This document shows, piece by piece, positions 29,402 to 38,492 of a stretch of DNA of 64,000 bases. The position numbers were made by a program, and so were the translations under genes. Position 1 is the stretch's first letter; the number at the start of each line of letters is the position of its first letter. Location: positions 58,177-122,176 of the forward strand of contig CAZBFP010000007.1 in the NCBI GenBank assembly GCA_964491265.1, given 5' to 3'. Source of the DNA: an uncultured Leptospirales bacterium (GTDB taxonomy: Bacteria > Spirochaetota > UBA4802 > UBA5550). The notes beneath the pieces were generated by a model, which had not been told where the DNA came from, did not search any database, and worked only from the letters and a program-made list of their open reading frames with translations.

Positions 29402-30973
29402 ATGGCAAAGCAGAAACAGAATAATAACAGCAGTGAACCAATAGAAAAGCAGCTCTGGAAAGCTGCGGATAAGCTGAGGAAGAATATTGATGCTGCTGAG
29501 TATAAGCATGTGGTGCTGGGGCTCATATTTCTTAAATACATCTCCGCAGCTTTTGAAGAACTATATGAAAGACTGAAAGCCGGTGAAGGGGAATATGCCG
29601 GAGCAGACCCGGAAGATAAGGATGAATACAAGGCAGAGAACGTATTCTTTGTGCCTGAAACAGCCCGCTGGTCCTATATGCAGTCAAAAGCAAAGCTCCC
29701 CACTATAGGGAAAGATGTAGATGATGCCATGGATGCCATTGAAAAAGATAATCCCTCCCTTAAAGATGTGCTTCCGAAGGTATATGCCAGGGGCAATCTT
29801 GATCCGGTGAATCTTGGCGGTCTTATTGATCTGATTTCAAATATCGCTCTTGGTAAAGCTAAAGCCAGAAGCGCTGATCTTCTGGGCCATGTTTTTGAAT
29901 ACTTTCTCGGTGAGTTTGCCCTTGCTGAAGGGAAAAAGGGGGGGCAGTTCTATACTCCCCGCAGTGTTGTAGAACTTCTTGTAGAGATGCTTGAACCTTA
30001 TAAAGGACGGGTATTTGACCCCTGCTGCGGTTCAGGAGGGATGTTTGTTCAGTCAGAGAAATTTGTGCTTAATCACAGCGGGAAGATTAACGATATTTCA
30101 ATCTACGGACAGGAGAGTAATCTTACAACCTGGCGACTTGCCAAAATGAATCTTGCATTCCGGGGGATCGACAGCTCTCAGGTAAGATGGAACAATGAGG
30201 GCTCCTTTCTAAATGATACTCATAAAGATTTAAAAGCTGATTATGTAATAGCCAACCCTCCATTTAATGACAGTGACTGGAGCGGTGAACTGCTAAAGAA
30301 GGATGGCCGATGGCAGTTTGGAACTCCGCCTTCAGGTAATGCCAACTATGCATGGATACAGCACTTTCTTTATCACTTAAGCCCTACAGGAATAGCGGGC
30401 TTTGTTCTTGCCAAGGGATCTCTTACTTCAAAAAGCTCAGGAGAAGGGGATATCCGGAAATCACTGATTGAAGCAGGGCTTGTTGACTGTATAGTAAACC
30501 TCCCTGCAAAGCTATTTCTTAATACCCAGATTCCCGCATTTCTATGGTTTCTCAGCAGGGATAAAGGTAATGGCAAATACCGCAGCCGTACTGATGAGAT
30601 ATTATTCATAGATGCCCGGAATGAAGGTCACCTGATAAACCGCCGCTCTAAAGAGCTCTCTGAAGAGGATATTCAGAGGATAGCTGATACATATAGAAAA
30701 TGGAAAGATCCGAAAGGGGGATATGAAGATATTAAAGGTTTCTGTAACTCTACAGGTATTGATAGAGTGAGGGAGCTGGATTATGTTTTAACCCCGGGGA
30801 GATATGTGGGCCTTCCGGATGAAGAGGATGACTTTGATTTTAATGAAAGGTTTACCAGCCTTAAAGCTGAGTTTGAAGCTCAACTTAAGGAGGAGGCAGA
30901 GCTGAATAAGGTTATACTTGAGAATTTGAAGAAGGTGAACCCTTCGGCAGGCTCAGGGCGAGGTCTGGGATGA
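29402..30973 (+). CDS. hsdM: type I restriction-modification system methyltransferase subunit HsdM (N6-adenine)
   Basis: 523 aa; AdoMet motif [11 protein letters not shown]; catalytic NPPFN; N-terminal HsdM_N region. Confidence 0.95.
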
Positions 30974-32148
30974 GTGTGGTTCGGCAGGCTCACCAACCGT
31001 GGAGAGAATGTAAGCTGGGGGATGTTATTTATTCCAATGTTTCTAGTATAACTGCAAGCTATCCTCATAAAACAATTAAGTATCTTGATACTGGGTCGAT
31101 TACTTGTGGCAAGATAGATTCATTTCAAGAAATACCCTTAAGCGAGGCACCTTCAAGGGCAAAAAGGCTTGTAAAGGATGGTAGTATTGTTTATTCAACT
31201 GTCCGCCCCATACAGAGGCATTATGGTTACATTACAAATCCTCCAGAAAACCTTGTGGTCTCGACTGGATTTTCTGTGATAGAAACTCAACCTGACTTGG
31301 CTGATTCTTCATTTATTTATAACCTCCTGGCATTAAAAGATGTTATCGAATTACTTGATACGATTGCTGAAGGTTCAACTTCAGCTTATCCATCATTGAA
31401 ACCTGCCGACATTGAAAATCTCGACATCCTCCTCCCTCCTCTCCCCGAACAAAAGGCTATTGCCGGGGTTCTTTCCAGTCTCGACGACAAGATCGACCTT
31501 CTGCACCGGCAGAATAAAACACTGGAAGCCATGGCTGAAGCGTTGTTCCGGCAATGGTTTGTGGTAGAGGCTGATGCGAGCTGGGAGGAAGTGCCTTTAT
31601 CGACTTTCGCAGACAATATTCGTGATAATGCAAGAGTTGGAGAATTGTCAAAACATAAGTATTATGTTGGATTGGAACATATACCGCGTAGAAGAGTAAT
31701 TCTCGATTCATGGGGCGAAACTGGTTCCTTAGAAAGCAACAAATCAATCTTTAAACCACATGACATTCTATTTGGAAAACTCCGTTCCTACTTCCATAAA
31801 GTGGTATTTACCCCGATTGGCGGTGTATGTTCAACAGATATTCTCGTGATAAGACCCAAAAATGAGCAATGGCTTCCTTTCTGCCTCTTTTGGTTTTTTA
31901 GCAAAGAAGTTGTTGAGCATTCAGACCTTGGTTCTGGTGGCACTCGAATGCCCAGGACAAATTGGGAAATCGTAAGTGGCTACAAAGTACCATGCCCTAC
32001 CGAAGAACTGATTTTAGAGTTCAATAGAGTCGTTCGACCATCTCTTTGCAGAATGTTTCAAAATATTGATGCCATCCGCACCCTCGAAAAGCTCCGTAAC
32101 ACCTTGTTGCCCAAGCTGATGTCCGGTGAAGTGAGGGTAGCTGTATGA
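30970..32148 (+). CDS. hsdS: type I RM specificity subunit HsdS (two target-recognition domains)
   Basis: 392 aa; conserved central and C-terminal repeats [24 protein letters not shown]... / [17 protein letters not shown]; overlaps hsdM stop (ATGA). Confidence 0.9.
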
Positions 32149-33251
32149 GTAGCAGCAGGAAGGATAGTATGCCATGTAAAGACGCGATTAATCGCGTCTT
32201 TACGGTAGATGCATTATCCACAGAAGATCATCTCACCGCAGAGGATCGTATCGCCACAGAAGATCATGACACCGCAGAGGATCGTATCACCACAGAAGAT
32301 CATCTCACCACAGAAGATCATGTCACCGCAGAGGATCGTATCACCACAGAAGATCATGACACCGCAGAGGATCGTATCGTCACAGAAGATCATGTCACCG
32401 CAGAGGATCGTATCACCACAGAAGATCATGACACCGCAGAGGATCGTATCGTCACAGAAGATCATGTCACCGCAGAGGATCGTATCACCACAGAAGATCA
32501 TGACACCGCAGAGGATCGTATCGTCACAGAAGATCATCTCATCACAGAGGATACAGTCATCAAAAAAGGTCATATCACCAGAAAAGATAACCTTTACAAA
32601 AACAAATACCGAATCTCGTCAACCAGATTGCAGAATTGGGATTACGGATGGAACGCCGCATATTTTATCACAATATGCACGAAAAATCGTCTGCCTTTTT
32701 TTGGCAATGTTAACAATGGGAAAATGATGATGACGGATGCGGGATTGATTGTAGAAAAATATTGGCATGAAATCCCGGCGCATTTTTCGTTCGTTTCGTT
32801 GGGGACGTTCGTCGTAATGCCGAATCATATTCACGGAATTGTTGTTATCAATAAAAAAAATGACGGTTATGGAAATACCGATCGTTATCGTAGAGACGCG
32901 ATTAATCGCGTCTCTACGTTATCCGTTGACGAAACGTTATCCGTTGACGAAACGTTATCCGTTGACGAAACGTTATCCGTTGACGGAACGTTATCCGTTG
33001 ACGGAACGGCATCCGTTAAACGGGGCGGTATAACCGGGAATAACAATCCCATGATTAATGATAATTTATCCAAAATAATCAGATGGTATAAAGGACGTTC
33101 ATCATTTGAATCACGAAAAATTGCACCTGAATTTGCATGGCAATCACGGTTCTACGAACACATCATCCGCAATGATGAATCATATTATCGAATATCTGAA
33201 TATATAAATAACAACCCCGCAAACTGGCAAAAGGATGATTTTTATGCCTAA
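32145..33251 (+). CDS. IS200/IS605-like HuH-Y1 transposase of RAYT type, chimeric with in-frame palindromes and 18-nt tandem repeats
   Basis: 368 aa single frame; RAYT core WDYGWNAAYFITICTKNRLPFFG...VVMPNHIHGIVVI (HuH) and LSKIIRWYKGRSS...WQSRFYEHIIRNDESY (Y1 helix); N-terminal 120 aa and a 50-aa internal loop encoded by repeats. Confidence 0.6.
   Translation: MSSSRKDSMPCKDAINRVFTVDALSTEDHLTAEDRIATEDHDTAEDRITTEDHLTTEDHVTAEDRITTEDHDTAEDRIVTEDHVTAEDRITTEDHDTAEDRIVTEDHVTAEDRITTEDHDTAEDRIVTEDHLITEDTVIKKGHITRKDNLYKNKYRISSTRLQNWDYGWNAAYFITICTKNRLPFFGNVNNGKMMMTDAGLIVEKYWHEIPAHFSFVSLGTFVVMPNHIHGIVVINKKNDGYGNTDRYRRDAINRVSTLSVDETLSVDETLSVDETLSVDGTLSVDGTASVKRGGITGNNNPMINDNLSKIIRWYKGRSSFESRKIAPEFAWQSRFYEHIIRNDESYYRISEYINNNPANWQKDDFYA
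32176..32203. repeat. perfect 28-nt palindrome GTAAAGACGCGATTAATCGCGTCTTTAC
   Basis: Read directly; second perfect palindrome with identical core at 32890..32917. Confidence 0.9.
32219..32560 (+). repeat. tandem array of ~19 x 18-nt units (CACAGAAGATCATNNCAC / CGCAGAGGATCGTATCRY), in frame (TEDHxT / AEDRIx)
   Basis: Contiguous head-to-tail units with 72-nt higher-order periodicity; no spacers (not CRISPR). Confidence 0.9.
32890..32917. repeat. perfect 28-nt palindrome GTAGAGACGCGATTAATCGCGTCTCTAC (GTAG...CTAC ends)
   Basis: Read directly; lies inside the RAYT ORF between the HuH motif and the Y1 helix. Confidence 0.9.
32919..33008 (+). repeat. tandem array of 5 x 18-nt units TTATCCGTTGACGAAACG (LSVDET), in frame within RAYT ORF
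   Basis: Three exact copies, two with A>G variant, one degenerate. Confidence 0.9.
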
Positions 33252-33498
33252 GAAGCGATCCCTTCCTGACAATCAGATCACCTTTTATCAGACCCCGGAC
33301 GGTACTGTAAATATAGAGGTGATGTATGCCAATGAGAACATCTGGCTTTCTCAAAAGCGGATGGCTGAACTTTTTGACTGCACTCCGGACAATATTTCTC
33401 TTCATCTTAAGAATATTTACTCAGAGAAGGAATTGGATGAAAGATCAACTGCCGAGGATTTCCCGGTAGTTCAAATAATCGAGGTTTGTTATGGATGA
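33235..33498 (+). CDS. truncated paralog of RhuM-family N-terminal domain
   Basis: 87 aa; TFYQTPDGTVNIEVMYANENIWLSQKRMAELF parallels N-terminus of next gene (IYTGPDGRVNVEVYIQDETVWLTQKRMAELF). Confidence 0.5.
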   Translation: MIFMPKKRSLPDNQITFYQTPDGTVNIEVMYANENIWLSQKRMAELFDCTPDNISLHLKNIYSEKELDERSTAEDFPVVQIIEVCYG

Positions 33499-34510
33499 GA
33501 ACACAACTAATTTTCTTATTTATACAGGTCCAGATGGGCGGGTCAACGTTGAAGTATATATTCAGGATGAAACCGTTTGGCTAACCCAGAAACGAATGGC
33601 TGAACTATTTTCAGTGGATGTTCGTACGATAAGTGAGCATCTGCGCAATATATTTAAAAGTAATGAATTGGACGAAGCTGCAACTATCCGGAAAATCCGG
33701 ACAGTTCAAAAAGAAGGTTCCCGTGATGTTTCACGGCTCTTGGATTTTTATAGTTTGGACGGTATCATAGCTGTTGGCTATCGGGTAAACTCCTACCAGG
33801 CTACACGTTTCCGTGTATGGGCCACAAAAGTCCTGAAGGAATACATAATTAAGGGGTTTGTCCTGGATGACGAACGTCTCAAACAGGGGAAAACCGTTTT
33901 CGGAAAAGATTATTTCGAAGAACTCCTTGAGCGTATTCGTGAAATACGGGCAAGCGAAAGGCGATTCTACCAGAAAATTACCGATATTTACGCGCTGGCC
34001 GCAGATTATGATAAGAATGCACCGATTACCAAAGAATTTTTTGCGACAGTGCAGAATAAACTTCACTGGGCTATAACCGGTAAAACTGCGGCTGAAATCA
34101 TTTACGATTCAGCGGATGCAAAAAAGATCTACATGGGATTAACAAACTGGAAACAGGCTCCTGACGGGAAAATATTAAAATCGGATGTGAGCGTCGCTAA
34201 AAATTATCTTAATAAAGCACATATTGATGAACTGAACAGAATTGTCTCTGCCTATCTCGATCTTGCTGAAAATCAGGCAAAACGGGGTATTATTACCCGA
34301 ATGGAAGACTGGGTAAAATTTCTGAATGATTTTCTGGAACTTTCACGATACCCTATTCTGAACGAAAAAGGGAGAGTTTCCGCTCTTGAAGGAAAACTGA
34401 AAGCTGAACAGGAGTTTGAAGAATATCGAGTCATTCAGGATGAAAATTATATCTCAGATTTCGATAAAGAAATCAAACGGATTACAGGGCACAGTGATGA
34501 TAAGAAATAA
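33491..34510 (+). CDS. RhuM-family (virulence protein RhuM-like) protein
   Basis: 339 aa; characteristic N-terminal domain plus conserved central region GYRVNSYQATRFRVWATKVLKEYIIKGFVLDDERL; family often embedded in type I RM loci. Confidence 0.8.
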   Translation: MDENTTNFLIYTGPDGRVNVEVYIQDETVWLTQKRMAELFSVDVRTISEHLRNIFKSNELDEAATIRKIRTVQKEGSRDVSRLLDFYSLDGIIAVGYRVNSYQATRFRVWATKVLKEYIIKGFVLDDERLKQGKTVFGKDYFEELLERIREIRASERRFYQKITDIYALAADYDKNAPITKEFFATVQNKLHWAITGKTAAEIIYDSADAKKIYMGLTNWKQAPDGKILKSDVSVAKNYLNKAHIDELNRIVSAYLDLAENQAKRGIITRMEDWVKFLNDFLELSRYPILNEKGRVSALEGKLKAEQEFEEYRVIQDENYISDFDKEIKRITGHSDDKK

Positions 34511-37500
34511 AATAACAGAATCATCTGTAGAACAGTACGCCATAGAACTCCTCCAGGCTCAGGGATATGAATATCTTCATGGCCAGGAAATCGCTCCAGA
34601 CAGTGATAATCCCCAGCGCTCATCATTTGATGAAGTATTACTCTTAAATATTCTTAAAGACGCAATAGCAGCAATCAATCCATCTATCCCTCCTGATGCT
34701 CAGGCTGACGCATTAAAACAGATTCAGAGGATCAACTCTCCTGAGCTTATTACAAACAATGAAACCTTTCATAGAATGCTGACCGAAGGGATAAACATAA
34801 CCTATCGCAAAGACGGTAACAGCAGAGGTGATAAGGTCTGGCTTATTGATTATGAAAATCCCGGGAACAACCGGTTTTTCGCAGTTAATCAGTTTACAGT
34901 CACAGATCACAGCAGAACAGGACATACTGTAAATAAGCGGCCCGACATTGTGCTGTTTGTAAACGGCATCCCCCTTGTGGTTATTGAACTTAAAAACCCG
35001 GCGGTTGAAGATGCAAATATAAATTCAGCATTCAGGCAGCTTCAAACCTATGTAGATGCTATCCCCGCGCTGTTTGCATATAACGGAATTATGATTATAT
35101 CAGACGGACTTGAAGCAAGGGCAGGTACTATATCGTCCGGACTGAGCAGATTCATGTCCTGGAAAACTGCTGACGGCAGAACAGAAGCATCCTCCCTTAT
35201 CAGCCCGCTTGAGGTAATTATTCAGGGTATGCTTAACAAAGAGACACTCATTGACCTTATCCGTCATTTTATTGTATTTGAGCAGTCAAAACGAGAGGAT
35301 AGGGACACCAGAATTATTACTATTCAGACGGTAAAAAAGCTGGCTGCTTATCATCAGTACTATGCTGTAAACAAAGCTGTCTGGTCAACTATGAGGGCTT
35401 CAGGATATATTTATCAGGCCGAATACACCTCTAAAGCTATTCCGGTAATGGATTCCTTTGATGTATATAAAGTTGATAAAAAAGTATCTCAAAAGTCGGG
35501 GGATAGAAAAGGGGGTGTGGTATGGCATACCCAGGGTTCCGGCAAATCACTATCAATGGTGTTTTACACTGGCCGCATAGTCCTGGCTCTCAATAATCCC
35601 ACTGTTCTGGTTATAACAGATCGTAACGATCTTGATGATCAGCTTTATGATACCTTTGCTTCCTCAAAGCAGTTATTAAGACAGGAGCCGGTACAGGCAA
35701 AGGATAGAGATCACCTTAAAACACTGCTTAAGGTTGCCTCCGGAGGAGTTGTTTTTACTACAATTCAAAAGTTCCAGCCGGATGCTTCGGCAGGCTCAGC
35801 AACCGGAGCAAAGTATGAAACCCTTTCAGAAAGAGAAAATATAATCGTAATAGCTGATGAAGCTCACCGGACTCAGTACGGCTTCAAAGCAAAGACTATT
35901 GATGATAAAGATGAGAATGGGAATGTCATAGGCAAGAAAGTAGTTTACGGCTTTGCCAAATATATGAGAGATGCTTTGCCTAATGCTACCTATCTCGGAT
36001 TTACCGGTACACCCATAGAAAATACAGATGTTAATACTCCGGCTGTATTCGGCAATTATGTGGATGTCTATGATGTGAGCCAGGCAGTGGAAGATGGCGC
36101 CACAGTAAGGATATTCTACGAAAGCAGACTGGCAAAGATTAATCTCAGTGATGAAGGGAGAACCCTGATTAAAGATTTTGATGATGAGCTTGCTGAAGAA
36201 GAGGTATCTGAATCACAGAAAGCAAAGGCTAAATGGACTCAGCTTGAAGCACTTATCGGCAGTTCTCAGAGGATTAAACAGGTTGCTGAAGATATCGTTA
36301 AACACTTTACGCTTCGTCAGGAGGTTTTTGAGGGGAAAGGAATGATTGTTGCAATGTCCAGGAGAATTGCAGCTGAACTTTATAAAGAGATAATAGCTCT
36401 CAAGCCTGAATGGCATAGTGATGAATTGCGAAAAGGTGCTGTTAAGGTAGTAATGACATCTGCTTCATCTGATGGTCCGGAAATTTCGAAGCATTACACA
36501 ACAAAGGAACAGCGGGGCATATTATCTGACCGTATGAAAGATCCTGATGATGAACTCAAACTGGTTATAGTCAGAGACATGTGGCTTACAGGTTTTGACG
36601 TACCCTCACTCCATACCCTTTATATGGACAAGCCTATGAAGGGACACAACCTGATGCAGGCAATAGCCAGGGTGAATCGGGTTTACAAAGATAAAAAGGG
36701 GGGGCTTATAGTCGATTATCTGGGCATAGCAGCTGATCTTAAAGAGGCTCTTTCATTTTACTCCGACTCAGGAGGGAAAGGCGATCCGGCGGTGGCTCAG
36801 GAGCAGGCTGTGCAGTTGATGCTGGAAAAGCTGGAAATTGTATCGCAGATGTTTCATGGCTTTGCATATGAGGAATACTTTGAAGCAGATACAGGGAGAA
36901 AGCTCTCACTTATCCTTGAAGCTGAGGAGCATATCCTGGGACTTGAAAACGGCAGAAAGAGATATATTGATGAAGTAACTGCCCTGTCTCAGTCTTTTGC
37001 CATAGCAGTACCACATGACCAGGCAATGGATGTGAAGGATGAGGTCGCATTCTTTCAGGCTGTTAAGGCCCGGCTTGTAAAATTTGACAGTACAGGTACA
37101 GGAATGACCGATGCAGAGATGGAGAGTGCGATCCGTCAGATTGTTGATAAAGCCCTTGTGTCGGATCAGGTGATTGATATTTTTGACGCCGCGGGTATAA
37201 AGAAACCTGATATCTCTATTCTTTCAGATGAATTTCTTCTTGAAGTAAAGAACATGCAGCATAAGAACCTTGCTCTTGAACTCCTTAATAAACTCTTAAA
37301 TGATGAAATCAAATCCCGGACCAAAAAGAACGTGGTACAGTCTAAAAGCCTTATGGATATGCTGCAGGATTCGATTAAACGCTACCACGCAAAGGTAATA
37401 ACAGCAGCTGAAGTCATTGAAGAACTGATTGAGCTGTCAAAAGAGATCAACAGGATGGATAAGGAGCCGGAAGAGATGGGGCTTACAGATTATGAGTACG

Positions 37501-37766
37501 CCTTCTATTCGGCTATAGCGGATAACAATAGCGCAAAAGAGGTTATGGGTCAGGAAAAACTGAGGGAACTGGCTGTAGTTTTATACAACAAAGTTAAAGA
37601 AAACGCTTCTATAGACTGGACTATTAAAGAGAGCGTAAAGGCAAAACTGAAAGTAATAGTCAAACGGATTCTTCGACAATACGGTTATCCTCCAGATATG
37701 CAGATGCTGGCAACTGAAACTGTGCTGAAACAGGCGGAATTAATTGCTGAGGAACTGGTTAAATAA
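34497..37766 (+). CDS. hsdR: type I RM restriction endonuclease/helicase subunit HsdR
   Basis: ORF track 34416..37766; ATG 34497 chosen; SF2 helicase motifs GSGKS, DEAH (IADEAHRTQ), motif VI QAIARVNR; N-terminal nuclease domain. Confidence 0.95.
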   Translation: MIRNKITESSVEQYAIELLQAQGYEYLHGQEIAPDSDNPQRSSFDEVLLLNILKDAIAAINPSIPPDAQADALKQIQRINSPELITNNETFHRMLTEGINITYRKDGNSRGDKVWLIDYENPGNNRFFAVNQFTVTDHSRTGHTVNKRPDIVLFVNGIPLVVIELKNPAVEDANINSAFRQLQTYVDAIPALFAYNGIMIISDGLEARAGTISSGLSRFMSWKTADGRTEASSLISPLEVIIQGMLNKETLIDLIRHFIVFEQSKREDRDTRIITIQTVKKLAAYHQYYAVNKAVWSTMRASGYIYQAEYTSKAIPVMDSFDVYKVDKKVSQKSGDRKGGVVWHTQGSGKSLSMVFYTGRIVLALNNPTVLVITDRNDLDDQLYDTFASSKQLLRQEPVQAKDRDHLKTLLKVASGGVVFTTIQKFQPDASAGSATGAKYETLSERENIIVIADEAHRTQYGFKAKTIDDKDENGNVIGKKVVYGFAKYMRDALPNATYLGFTGTPIENTDVNTPAVFGNYVDVYDVSQAVEDGATVRIFYESRLAKINLSDEGRTLIKDFDDELAEEEVSESQKAKAKWTQLEALIGSSQRIKQVAEDIVKHFTLRQEVFEGKGMIVAMSRRIAAELYKEIIALKPEWHSDELRKGAVKVVMTSASSDGPEISKHYTTKEQRGILSDRMKDPDDELKLVIVRDMWLTGFDVPSLHTLYMDKPMKGHNLMQAIARVNRVYKDKKGGLIVDYLGIAADLKEALSFYSDSGGKGDPAVAQEQAVQLMLEKLEIVSQMFHGFAYEEYFEADTGRKLSLILEAEEHILGLENGRKRYIDEVTALSQSFAIAVPHDQAMDVKDEVAFFQAVKARLVKFDSTGTGMTDAEMESAIRQIVDKALVSDQVIDIFDAAGIKKPDISILSDEFLLEVKNMQHKNLALELLNKLLNDEIKSRTKKNVVQSKSLMDMLQDSIKRYHAKVITAAEVIEELIELSKEINRMDKEPEEMGLTDYEYAFYSAIADNNSAKEVMGQEKLRELAVVLYNKVKENASIDWTIKESVKAKLKVIVKRILRQYGYPPDMQMLATETVLKQAELIAEELVK

Positions 37767-38418: not shown

Positions 38419-38492
38419 TCGGGGTGACAGGATTTGAACCTGCGACCACATGACCCCCAGTCATGTGCGCTACCTGGCTGCGCTACACCCCG
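38419..38492 (-). tRNA. tRNA-Pro (anticodon GGG)
   Basis: Reverse complement CGGGGTGTAGCGCAGCCAGGTAGCGCACATGACTGGGGGTCATGTGGTCGCAGGTTCAAATCCTGTCACCCCGA folds as cloverleaf; anticodon loop CTGGGGG; T-loop GGTTCAAATCC; CCA not encoded. Confidence 0.85.

What the first reader, a model, noticed from the sequence alone, without database searches (positions are those of the whole stretch)
32219..33008. Two in-frame 18-nt tandem-repeat blocks, each immediately 3' of a 28-nt perfect palindrome
Block 1 (32219..32560) has about 19 units alternating CACAGAAGATCATNNCAC and CGCAGAGGATCGTATCRY, with a 72-nt higher-order period. It is translated as (TEDHxT / AEDRIx)n.

Block 2 (32919..33008) has 5 units of TTATCCGTTGACGAAACG, translated as (LSVDET)n.

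Both unit lengths are multiples of 3 and keep the frame. Both follow palindromes that share the core GACGCGATTAATCGCGTC. This [palindrome + 18-mer array] module, duplicated with different unit sequences, looks like a templated or slippage-generated structure rather than chance. Arrays of this kind are prone to copy-number variation, so this could be a contingency (phase- or length-variable) locus. The other five reading frames over these arrays also give long spurious ORFs.
Basis: seen in the sequence. Interest (0 to 1): 0.6.

Follow-up and report, generated by a model that had tools for sequence, protein, structure and literature searches.

The report
REP hairpins inside a RAYT gene
The two palindromes are REP hairpins carried inside the gene of their own REP-associated tyrosine transposase (a published peculiarity of one RAYT subfamily), and the 18-nt arrays are the fast-changing in-frame minisatellites that typically grow next to such hairpins, so this is an ordinary member of a known kind.

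Summary
Two perfect palindromes share a 20-nt core, and each is followed by an in-frame 18-nt array (19 and 5 units).

Both lie in one ORF (32145..33251, 368 aa). It encodes an HUH/Tyr single-strand DNA enzyme of TnpA_REP subclass 2.4, which equals RAYT Group 4.

Quentin et al. 2018 (PMC6006769) already described this subclass. It has "double-foot" GTAG...CTAC REPs inserted in frame between the HuH and Tyr motifs, and a highly variable, short-repeat-rich insertion domain.

What I add:
- About 103 of 104 relatives carry the hairpin in that loop. It is read in either of its two open frames, roughly 1:1.
- The outer stem is conserved. The inner stem differs between genes but stays palindromic.
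- Near-identical relatives differ in the copy number of the neighbouring arrays.
- A 5' REP plus a loop REP, as in this window, recurs in about a quarter of relatives.
- This REP is enriched about 6-fold (odds ratio 8) next to tandem repeats across genomes.

Phase variation (on/off switching) is not supported, because the units are 18 nt. Length variation is plausible but unproven for this locus.

One side result may be new. About a quarter of relatives, like this gene, sit co-oriented inside type I restriction-modification operons.

The parts
32145..33251 (+). tnpA_REP / RAYT gene (subclass 2.4 = Group 4), 368 aa counted from the ATG that overlaps the hsdS stop (ATGA). Other assemblies call the start at ATG 32169 (360 aa).
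   Evidence: ORF. Pfam Y1_Tnp scores 24.1 bits against a cutoff of 23. NCBIfam REP_Tyr_transpos scores 55 bits, below its cutoff of 80. The gene keeps 58 of 58 family columns that are at least 93% conserved. 4ER8 is the only PDB sequence hit, E = 2e-7, and the top fold hit.
32176..32203 (.). REP1: 28-nt perfect palindrome at the 5' end of the gene, with variant feet GTAA...TTAC. A GTAG follows at 32205..32208. It is translated as KDAINRVFT if the upstream ATG is used.
   Evidence: Hairpin of -13.5 kcal/mol, z = -7.2. A REP 50-280 nt upstream of the conserved N-terminus is seen in 17 of 50 relatives.
32219..32573 (+). Array 1: 19 units of 18 nt (TEDHxT / AEDRIx) with a 72-nt higher-order repeat. 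It forms an acidic N-terminal extension or a leader.
   Evidence: Unstructured as ssDNA. Not similar to the REP. Copy number is 19, 11 or 6 in different assemblies.
32826..32834 (+). HuH motif codons (H228-I-H230 within MPNHIHG).
   Evidence: The motif NH[IFV]H defines subclass 2.4 in PMC6006769.
32889..32918 (.). REP2: 30-nt perfect palindrome. It contains the double-foot REP GTAG-AGACGCGATTAATCGCGTCT-CTAC at 32890..32917, translated as RRDAINRVST, in the loop between the HuH and Tyr motifs.
   Evidence: Hairpin of -16.2 kcal/mol, z = -7.7. About 103 of 104 relatives have a hairpin in the same loop position. This part of the model is a low-confidence loop.
32919..33008 (+). Array 2: 5 units of 18 nt (LSVDET x3, LSVDGT x2), followed by one degenerate unit up to about 33017.
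   Evidence: Identical in all 5 assemblies that span it. CGTTATC flanks REP2 on both sides. The unit resembles the 18-nt unit of the Gelidibacter homologue.
33138..33143 (+). W332-Q333 (the WQ motif).
33201..33218 (+). Tyr motif Y353-INNNP (YIxNNP), containing the predicted catalytic tyrosine.
   Evidence: It aligns with YIYINP of 4ER8.
29402..32148 (+). Context: hsdM (29402..30973) and hsdS (30970..32148) of a type I R-M system, directly upstream. The hsdS stop overlaps the RAYT start codon.
33235..37766 (+). Context: RhuM N-terminal fragment (33235..33498), full-length RhuM (33491..34510) and hsdR (34416..37766), directly downstream.
   Evidence: RhuM matches the PADLOC candidate PDC-S05. 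HsdR domains are listed.

Best explanation
The ORF 32145..33251 encodes a REP-associated tyrosine transposase, an HUH/Y1 single-strand DNA nuclease-ligase. It belongs to TnpA_REP subclass 2.4, which equals RAYT Group 4.

**The palindromes.** They are this enzyme family's own REP hairpins, of the "double-foot" GTAG...CTAC type. REP1 lies at the 5' end of the gene. REP2 lies in the variable surface loop between the HuH motif and the Tyr-bearing half. Nearly every relative has such a hairpin at that second position.

The hairpin is kept as a nucleic-acid structure, not as a peptide. Relatives read it in either of its two open frames. The inner stem changes from gene to gene while staying self-complementary.

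**The arrays.** The 18-nt arrays are minisatellites that arise and turn over quickly beside these hairpins. My inference is slipped-strand mispairing at forks stalled by the hairpin, possibly helped by nicking and rejoining by the enzyme. Inside the ORF only periods divisible by three persist, which is why both arrays are "in frame".

**The protein.** The array-encoded peptides are disordered filler in a loop and in an N-terminal tail. The catalytic core is intact.

**Shown:** family membership, hairpin conservation at the nucleic-acid level, array variability among relatives, and the REP/tandem-repeat association.

**Inferred:** that the enzyme binds or cleaves these very hairpins, and that the hairpin causes the arrays.
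For: **Family membership.**
- The motifs MPNHIHG, WQ and YINNNP match the subclass 2.4 signatures NH[IFV]H / WQ / YIxNNP given in PMC6006769.
- 58 of 58 conserved family columns are kept.
- 4ER8 (E. coli TnpA_REP bound to a REP hairpin) is the only PDB sequence hit (E = 2.1e-7). It is also the best fold hit (rmsd 2.5 A).

**Published description.** PMC6006769 describes for subclass 2.4:
- double-foot REPs with 5' GT[AG]G and 3' C[TC]AC;
- a highly variable insertion domain containing short repeats.

**Selection at the DNA level.**
- Among 104 relatives, 45 read the hairpin as DAINRV, 42 as TRLIAS, 16 carry close variants, and 1 has none. The third frame contains TAG and TAA.
- 73 of 82 homologous genes have a perfect hairpin of at least 9 bp, where chance predicts about 0.016 per gene (my estimate).
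- Most of these hairpins have the form GTAGAGAC-x6-x6-GTCTCTAC, with different but self-complementary inner stems.
- In 44 of 50 motif-anchored genes the hairpin lies between HuH and WQ.

**Architecture.**
- 17 of 50 relatives have a 5' REP, and 13 have both a 5' REP and a loop REP.

**Arrays.**
- 36 of 81 relatives have tandem repeats in the gene, and 26 of those 36 have periods divisible by three.
- The Gelidibacter homologue has 18 nt x 12 with a 72-nt higher-order period.
- Proteins more than 96% identical outside the loop have loops of 53/74/85 aa or 69/90/207 aa, differing by unit number.
- Across genomes, 38 of 139 copies of this REP have a tandem repeat within 15 nt. Only 107 of 2400 control positions do (odds ratio 8, p = 9e-18).
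- Partial tandem duplications of the REP arm itself occur in L018, L072 and L135.
- The loop is predicted to be disordered.
Against: - No enzymology. That this protein acts on these hairpins rests on analogy with E. coli TnpA_REP.
- REP1 has GTAA/TTAC feet rather than GT[AG]G/C[TC]AC.
- The window holds no other copy of the REP and no 3' REP. No REP population is visible here.
- The direction of causality between hairpin and arrays is open. The flanks of 50 of 128 REPs share a direct 6-mer, against 15 expected. REP2 itself is flanked by CGTTATC on both sides. Both facts would also fit REPs inserting into pre-existing arrays.
- The core lacks a canonical start codon near the family's usual N-terminus. 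Either the 145-aa array-containing extension is translated, or the gene is not expressed as a normal protein.
- Copy-number differences at this locus may be assembly artefacts.
Confidence: 0.82

Rival explanations
1. Contingency locus. The arrays are simple-sequence repeats whose copy number switches or tunes expression of the gene, or of the surrounding R-M operon, as in phase-variable restriction-modification systems.
For: - Different assemblies of the same locus show 19, 11 and 6 units of array 1.
- Close relatives differ in loop-array copy number.
- The gene sits inside a type I R-M operon, and such operons are known to host phase-variable repeats.
Against: - Units of 18 nt keep the frame, so no on/off switch is possible.
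- Array 2 is identical in all five assemblies that span it.
- The array 1 differences are exactly what a k=141 de Bruijn assembler does to a 72-nt higher-order repeat. Six contigs break inside the array.
- The arrays lie in the RAYT gene, not in hsdS or hsdM.
- Array sequences are not conserved among relatives.
Confidence: 0.08
2. An independent small mobile palindromic element (RPE-like or MITE-like) inserted into an unrelated tolerant gene, with no functional tie to the encoded protein. REPs are merely tolerated there.
For: - The same 20-nt core is dispersed in many genomes outside RAYT genes. 129 of 139 copies in the genome scan are not in a RAYT gene.
- Intragenic REPs in unrelated genes are documented (PMC3733652).
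- PMC6006769 itself speaks of "insertions" that may have little impact on the protein.
Against: - The host gene is the very enzyme class that handles REPs.
- The hairpin is at the same loop position in about 99% of relatives.
- Each gene has its own inner-stem variant, which looks like co-evolution.
- The same variant is often repeated at the 5' end, in the loop and at the 3' end of the same gene, for example in L163, L196 and L211.
Confidence: 0.05
3. The hairpins act mainly at the RNA level, as translation or stability control of the RAYT mRNA (as in IS200). The arrays are neutral by-products.
For: - REP1 begins 7 nt after the ATG at 32169 and directly follows an AGGAAGGA stretch.
- Down-regulation of RAYT expression by REP hairpins is suggested in PMC3733652.
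- The structure is conserved regardless of reading frame, which fits RNA as well as DNA.
Against: - The conserved GTAG/CTAC feet are the DNA recognition and cleavage signature of RAYT substrates (PMC3733652; PMC6006769).
- An RNA role would not explain why identical hairpins are dispersed in intergenic DNA of many genomes.
- The two roles are not exclusive.
Confidence: 0.05

Closest known systems
TnpA_REP subclass 2.4 (Quentin, Siguier, Chandler, Fichant 2018, PMC6006769), equal to RAYT Group 4 (Bertels et al. 2017, PMC5581495)
   Same: - HuH, WQ and YIxNNP motifs.
- Double-foot GTAG...CTAC REP.
- REP inserted in frame between the HuH and Tyr motifs.
- Insertion domain variable in length and rich in short repeats.
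- The relatives found here come mostly from Bacteroidota, one of the two phyla where the subclass is abundant.
   Different: - An unusually long 5' array (19 units) is fused to the ORF as an N-terminal extension.
- REP1 has GTAA/TTAC feet.
- There is no 3' REP.
- The gene sits inside a type I R-M operon. I found no mention of this context in the passages of those papers that I read.
E. coli TnpA_REP with REP/BIME (structure 4ER8)
   Same: Same fold and catalytic motifs. The enzyme recognises a GTAG-tagged ssDNA hairpin.
   Different: - About 18% sequence identity.
- The E. coli enzyme has no insertion between HuH and helix C.
- Its REPs are extragenic, imperfect and very abundant. Here the hairpins are perfect palindromes with paired GTAG/CTAC feet, and they lie inside the gene.
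REPIN-RAYT systems of Pseudomonas (Bertels and Rainey 2011, PMC3116915)
   Same: A single-copy domesticated RAYT linked to its cognate palindromes.
   Different: REPINs are REP doublets present in hundreds of copies. No such population is seen in this 64-kb window.
Intragenic GTAG/CGTC REPs and Rickettsia RPEs (Di Nocera et al. 2013, PMC3733652)
   Same: Palindromic repeats that sit in frame inside protein-coding genes and add peptide segments.
   Different: Those are scattered in unrelated genes at non-conserved positions. Here the position is conserved family-wide and the host gene is the REP enzyme itself.
Small dispersed repeats (SDR) within heptamer arrays in Nostoc (Elhai et al. 2008, Genome Res 18:1484). 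Recalled from memory; the paper was not available to read.
   Same: Very short hairpin-forming dispersed elements embedded in tandem heptamer arrays of heterocystous cyanobacteria. This matches what I saw for this REP in Nostocales loci.
   Different: I could not verify whether any SDR family is this sequence. As far as I recall, no link to a RAYT gene was made there.
Simple-sequence contingency loci (phase-variable R-M systems)
   Same: Tandem repeats in or near an R-M operon, with possible copy-number variation.
   Different: Those use units of 1-7 nt that shift the frame or alter promoter spacing. Here the units are 18 nt, keep the frame, and lie in an accessory gene.

Membership tests
TnpA_REP subclass 2.4 / RAYT Group 4 | HuH motif NH[IFV]H | tested here: met
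   MPNHIHG at aa 225-231. Signature taken from PMC6006769, Table 1.
TnpA_REP subclass 2.4 / RAYT Group 4 | WQ motif and Tyr motif YIxNNP | tested here: met
   W332-Q333 and Y353-INNNP.
TnpA_REP subclass 2.4 / RAYT Group 4 | HUH/Y1 transposase fold, closest to TnpA_REP | tested here: met
   The family profile hits only 4ER8, E = 2.1e-7. The AlphaFold model (core pLDDT 70-94) has 4ER8_A as top Foldseek hit, rmsd 2.5 A, followed by the IS608, ISDra2 and IS200 transposases.
TnpA_REP subclass 2.4 / RAYT Group 4 | Variable insertion domain between beta3 (HuH) and alphaC | tested here: met
   The loop is 23-207 aa long among 104 relatives. It is disordered in the model. In the window it holds REP2 and array 2.
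TnpA_REP subclass 2.4 / RAYT Group 4 | Double-foot REP (5' GT[AG]G ... C[TC]AC 3') inserted in frame within the gene | tested here: met
   REP2 is GTAG-AGACGCGATTAATCGCGTCT-CTAC at 32890..32917, in frame. REP1 deviates, with GTAA...TTAC feet.
TnpA_REP subclass 2.4 / RAYT Group 4 | REPs also flank the gene (REPtron) | tested here: inconclusive
   A 5' REP is present (REP1). No 3' hairpin lies within 250 nt of the stop. 22 of 66 relatives have one there.
TnpA_REP subclass 2.4 / RAYT Group 4 | Binds and cleaves its cognate REP as single-stranded DNA | not testable with these tools
   Needs biochemistry. Inferred from E. coli TnpA_REP (PMC3733652 discussion).
REP / REPIN population | Many dispersed copies of the palindrome in the same genome | tested here: inconclusive
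   Only the 2 intragenic copies occur in 64 kb. The rest of the genome is not available. Other genomes do hold dispersed copies.
Contingency (phase-variable) simple-sequence locus | A change in repeat number alters the reading frame or promoter spacing | tested here: not met
   Unit length is 18 nt in both arrays, so the frame is preserved at any copy number.
Contingency (phase-variable) simple-sequence locus | Copy number differs between cells or strains | tested here: inconclusive
   Array 1 has 19, 11 or 6 units in short-read assemblies, and 6 contigs break in the array. Array 2 is constant. Close relatives in other species do differ.
IS200/IS605 insertion sequence | Multi-copy element with subterminal left and right hairpins, often with tnpB | tested here: not met
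   There is a single copy in the window and no tnpB. One hairpin is inside the gene and none is at the 3' end. The motifs are those of class 2 (TnpA_REP), not class 1.
Rickettsia-type RPE / CGTC-tagged repeats | CGTC terminal tag; insertion into unrelated genes | tested here: not met
   The feet are GTAG/CTAC, and the host gene is the cognate RAYT.

The most novel reading that the evidence does not exclude
This branch of Group 4 RAYTs may not be a random passenger. It may be a recurrent, co-transcribed accessory of type I (and some MmeI-type) restriction-modification operons.

**Evidence.**
- 12 of 50 metagenomic relatives with enough flank have type I R-M genes within 5 kb, all co-oriented.
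- 3 of 3 informative genome look-ups show the same, as does this window.
- Mostly the RAYT lies between hsd genes (between hsdM/hsdS and hsdR), or directly beside one.
- 0 of 103 control stretches have such neighbours (p = 5.5e-7).

**Possible meaning.**
- The HUH nuclease could contribute to defence or to handling ssDNA intermediates.
- Or it could exploit the addictive R-M operon for its own retention and horizontal spread, carrying its REP inside the gene so that enzyme and substrate always travel together.
- Hairpin-adjacent arrays would then be a by-product, or a tuning device for read-through to hsdR.
Probability: 0.2. Interest if true: 0.7.

Novelty: new member of a known kind. Interest (0 to 1): 0.35.

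Why it matters
The finding itself is explained by published work, so its main value is as a clean, well-documented example.

Three by-products could matter to people who ask what domesticated RAYTs do for their hosts:
1. The intragenic hairpin is almost universal in this clade. It is kept as a structure, through two reading frames and compensatory stems. That argues it is a functional part of the gene rather than a tolerated insertion.
2. This REP is strongly associated with tandem-repeat arrays, both inside RAYT genes (periods divisible by three) and in intergenic DNA (heptamers in Nostocales). This points to a mechanistic link between REP hairpins and minisatellite birth.
3. About a quarter of these RAYT genes sit inside type I R-M operons. 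That gives a testable lead on retention or function.

Tried and rejected
- **Are the 18-mers degenerate copies of a REP half?** Local alignment against shuffles gave p = 0.3-0.95. Rejected.
- **Do the arrays fold as ssDNA?** Array 1 gave z = +1.0 and array 2 z = -1.7. No meaningful structure.
- **Is array 1 a known protein repeat?** The Pfam LED_rpt hit scores 16.5 bits against a cutoff of 59. Noise.
- **Known RNA family?** Rfam at gathering thresholds found nothing across the region, only a tRNA at 38419.
- **Known defence protein?** PADLOC gave no hit for the RAYT.
- **Annotated examples on plasmids?** tblastn against plasmids gave only 5 distant hits, none cyanobacterial. Not pursued.
- **Literature.**
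  - The sequence itself and its peptide translations appear in no paper on this subject; the only two matches were in unrelated papers.
  - Elhai 2008 is not held. Searches for SDR4/SDR5 or STRR context gave nothing usable.
  - No listed paper combines RAYT with type I R-M.
- **Strain copy-number variation.** Tested through exact HsdS look-up. The result is confounded by assembly collapse.
- **Are the arrays homologous across relatives?** Only array 2 resembles the Gelidibacter 18-mer (11-13 of 18 matches, uncorrected p = 0.001-0.03). Array 1 does not. No other relative among 120 has SVD[DE] or [TA]ED[HR] repeats.
Full report
**1. Observation**

The sequence and Tandem Repeats Finder confirm two arrays. 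The first is 32218..32588, with period 36/72/108. It resolves into 18 full 18-mers plus a degenerate last unit, alternating CACAGAAGATCATnnCAC and CGCAGAGGATCGTATCnn. The second is 32916..33017, with period 18 and 5.7 copies.

The inverted-repeat search finds a perfect 28-nt palindrome at 32176..32203. It also finds a palindrome that is perfect over 30 nt at 32889..32918. The two share the 20-nt core AGACGCGATTAATCGCGTCT.

Shuffles give 0.02 and 0.06 expected.

As single-stranded DNA the palindromes fold into 12-13-bp hairpins of -13.5 and -16.2 kcal/mol (z = -7.2 and -7.7). The arrays are not significantly structured.

- Array 1 begins 15 nt after palindrome 1, not immediately.
- Palindrome 2 is perfect over 30 nt.
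- Only some of the other frames are open.

**2. What surrounds it**

Both modules lie in one ORF, 32145..33251 (368 aa). Its ATG overlaps the stop of hsdS (ATGA).

The neighbourhood is a type I restriction-modification operon:
- hsdM 29402..30973
- hsdS 30970..32148
- this ORF
- a RhuM N-terminal fragment, 33235..33498
- a full RhuM gene, 33491..34510
- hsdR 34416..37766

The ORF is a Y1/HUH transposase-like protein:
- Pfam Y1_Tnp scores just above its cutoff.
- NCBIfam REP_Tyr_transpos scores 55 bits, below its cutoff.
- The only PDB sequence relative is 4ER8, E. coli TnpA_REP. The E-value is 5.5e-4 with the single sequence and 2.1e-7 with a family profile.
- An AlphaFold model of the core (arrays removed; core pLDDT 70-94) has 4ER8_A as its best Foldseek match, at rmsd 2.5 A. 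The IS608, ISDra2 and IS200 transposases follow.
- All 58 alignment columns that are at least 93% conserved among 120 homologues are kept in the window protein. These include H228/H230, W332-Q333 and Y353.

**3. The family and the literature**

More than 4400 homologues were found, mostly from Bacteroidota. They are 184-368 aa long.

Their sequences show, between MPNHxHG and GGITGNKNPM, either "RDAINRVST" or "VETRLIASL". These are the same DNA palindrome, GTAGAGACGCGATTAATCGCGTCTCTAC, read in its two open frames. The third frame holds TAG and TAA.

Counts among 104 anchored homologues:

| Reading of the hairpin | Number |
|---|---|
| Frame A (DAINRV) | 45 |
| Frame B (TRLIAS) | 42 |
| Close variants | 16 |
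| None | 1 |

This arrangement is published. Quentin et al. 2018 (PMC6006769) define TnpA_REP subclass 2.4, which equals Bertels' RAYT Group 4, by these features:
- HuH motif NH[IFV]H, WQ motif, and Tyr motif YIxNNP;
- abundance in Cyanobacteria and Bacteroidetes;
- "double foot" REPs (5' GT[AG]G ... C[TC]AC 3');
- REPs inserted in frame inside tnpA_REP between HuH and Y;

The window gene meets each sequence criterion (MPNHIHG, WQ, YINNNP, GTAG...CTAC in the loop).

Di Nocera et al. 2013 (PMC3733652) provide the GTAG-tag framework and document intragenic REPs. Bertels et al. 2017 (PMC5581495) describe Group 4 as common in Cyanobacteria, Chlorobia and Caldilineae, with moderately abundant flanking 16-mers.

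**4. New quantitative support from DNA of relatives**

A metagenome scan with a family alignment returned 80 loci. Four protein look-ups added genome loci.

*Hairpins.*
- 73 of 82 genes contain a perfect hairpin of at least 9 bp. A 600-nt random sequence would have about 0.016 (my estimate).
- Most have the form GTAGAGAC-x6-x6-GTCTCTAC or GTAGGGGC...GCCCCTAC.
- The inner stem differs between genes but stays self-complementary. Examples are GCGATTAATCGC, GTTGCATGCAAC, AAGGCATGCCTT, GCAAAATTTTGC and GAATAATTATTC.
- In 44 of 50 motif-anchored genes the hairpin lies between the HuH and WQ motifs.
- 17 of 50 have a REP 50-280 nt upstream of the conserved N-terminus, and 13 have both. That is the architecture seen in the window.
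- 22 of 66 also have a hairpin at the 3' end, against 56 of 1411 background windows. The window has none.

The hairpin is therefore conserved as a structure at a fixed place in the gene. It appears to co-evolve with the gene. It is not kept for its peptide.

*Arrays.*
- 36 of 81 relatives have tandem repeats in the gene, and 26 of 36 have periods divisible by three.
- Gelidibacter maritimus has 18 nt x 12 with a 72-nt higher-order period, directly abutting its REP.
- Another locus has 9 nt x 43.
- Proteins more than 96% identical outside the loop have loops of 53/74/85 aa (P0004/P0017/P0026) and 69/90/207 aa (P0049/P0082/P0063). They differ by unit number.
- The 18-mers of the window are not derived from REP halves.
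- Array 2's unit modestly resembles the Gelidibacter unit. Array 1's does not.

**5. The same REP elsewhere**

I estimate about 0.5 expected by chance. The hits are mostly Nostocales cyanobacteria. They also include Bacteroidota, several candidate-phyla-radiation lineages and Methylococcales.

Only 10 of 139 copies lie in or next to a RAYT-like ORF. The element is therefore dispersed.

- 38 of 139 copies have a tandem repeat within 15 nt, against 107 of 2400 control positions in the same loci (odds ratio 8, p = 9e-18).
- In cyanobacteria these repeats are mostly heptamers.
- The two flanks of a REP share a direct 6-mer in 50 of 128 cases. Random pairing gives 15 expected, with a maximum of 28 in 1000 permutations.
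- REP2 in the window is likewise flanked by CGTTATC on both sides.

The pairing of REP and tandem array is general. Its causal direction is not settled: the hairpin may provoke arrays, or REPs may land in arrays.

Inside RAYT genes, hairpin-adjacent instability is the more economical reading. The hairpin position is fixed there, while the arrays differ between close relatives. Partial tandem duplications of the REP arm itself (L018, L072, L135) point the same way.

**6. Copy-number variation at this locus**

The identical HsdS protein occurs on 18 contigs, of which 10 were examined.

| Units in array 1 | Where seen |
|---|---|
| 19 | the window and two JGI contigs |
| 11 | one ENA k141 contig |
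| 6 | another ENA k141 contig |
| contig ends inside the array | six contigs |

Array 2 always has 5 units. A 72-nt higher-order repeat cannot be resolved by 141-mers, so the differences may be assembly collapse. This test is inconclusive.

**7. Start codon**

Relatives begin MSDKFQNKYRI. The window reads ...ITRKDNLYKNKYRI, with no ATG, GTG or TTG between the array and the conserved N-terminus.

The core can therefore only be translated from the ATG at 32145 or 32169, through REP1 and array 1. That would give an acidic extension of about 145 aa. Because 18-nt arrays are open in several frames, openness is not evidence of translation. This point needs experiment.

**8. Side result: link to restriction-modification operons**

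- 12 of 50 metagenomic loci with at least 2.5 kb of flank have type I R-M genes within 5 kb, all co-oriented. Usually the RAYT lies between hsdM/hsdS and hsdR.
- Five short contigs show hsd genes directly adjacent.
- Three of three informative genome look-ups do too:
  - Gelidibacter: hsdM-RAYT-x-hsdS-Fic
  - Taishania: hsdM-RAYT-hsdS-hsdR
  - a Flavobacterium-like MAG: hsdR-like-RAYT-MTase/S fusion
- One further locus follows an MmeI-type methyltransferase by 4 nt.
- None of 103 control 8-kb stretches has such neighbours (p = 5.5e-7). This is a rough control, because most of those stretches are cyanobacterial.
- The remaining relatives sit among assorted housekeeping genes, sometimes wedged inside operons. 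An example is between fadB-like and thiolase genes, with gaps of 4 and 13 nt.
- PADLOC has no model for this protein. No listed paper combined RAYT with type I R-M.

**9. Verdict**

The finding is a real and non-random structure, but it is a typical member of a described class. It is a subclass 2.4 / Group 4 RAYT gene carrying its cognate double-foot REPs, with hypervariable in-frame minisatellites beside them.

The contingency-locus reading is not supported in the phase-variation sense. Length variation is likely in the family but unproven here.

The parts that may go beyond the literature are three: the near-universality and structural co-variation of the intragenic hairpin, the genome-wide REP/tandem-array association, and the recurrent embedding in R-M operons.

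Noticed in passing
window 29402..37766; L131, L132, L135, L137, L142, L148, L164, L167, L175, L188, L207, L211, L213: Relatives of this RAYT gene repeatedly sit co-oriented inside type I R-M operons: 12 of 50 informative metagenome loci and 3 of 3 informative genome look-ups, against 0 of 103 control stretches (p = 5.5e-7). I found no paper describing this.
   Followed up: partly
L011-L130 (genome scan with AGACGCGATTAATCGCGTCT): The exact 20-nt REP core occurs in very different phyla: Nostocales, Bacteroidota, candidate-phyla-radiation lineages, Methylococcales and FCPU426. About 0.5 hits are expected by chance. REPs are usually lineage-specific, so this suggests horizontal spread of a self-contained gene-plus-REP unit.
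   Followed up: partly
L016, L029, L032, L057, L058, L066, L073, L082, L121 and others: In cyanobacteria the REP is embedded in or abuts heptamer tandem arrays (CTCCTAA, ATTGACC, GGGCATG, ATTCCCC and others), often on both sides. This resembles what I recall of Elhai 2008 on small dispersed repeats, which I could not read.
   Followed up: partly
L135 3293..3861 (protein P0063, 368 aa): One RAYT gene carries 12 hairpins in its loop, as a 99-nt higher-order array alternating two REP variants (ATTTAT-loop and GCAATTAATTGC). A 99% identical relative (P0082) has far fewer.
   Followed up: no
window 33235..33498 and 33491..34510: A short ORF encoding only the N-terminal ~70 residues of a RhuM-like protein (PADLOC PDC-S05) lies immediately upstream of a full-length RhuM gene. 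It overlaps the RAYT stop.
   Followed up: no
window 38419..38492 (-): A tRNA gene lies about 650 nt downstream of hsdR. It may mark the edge of an integrated island that carries the R-M operon.
   Followed up: no
L212 1435..5877: A RAYT homologue is wedged between a fadB-like (3HCDH/ECH) gene and a thiolase gene, with gaps of only 4 and 13 nt. It is inside what looks like a fatty-acid oxidation operon.
   Followed up: no
L043 4921..5081; L080 4170..4886: Arrays occur in which the REP itself is part of the repeating unit: 39 nt x 4 in a Nostoc MAG and 121 nt x 6 in a Flavobacterium. Both lie outside any RAYT gene.
   Followed up: no
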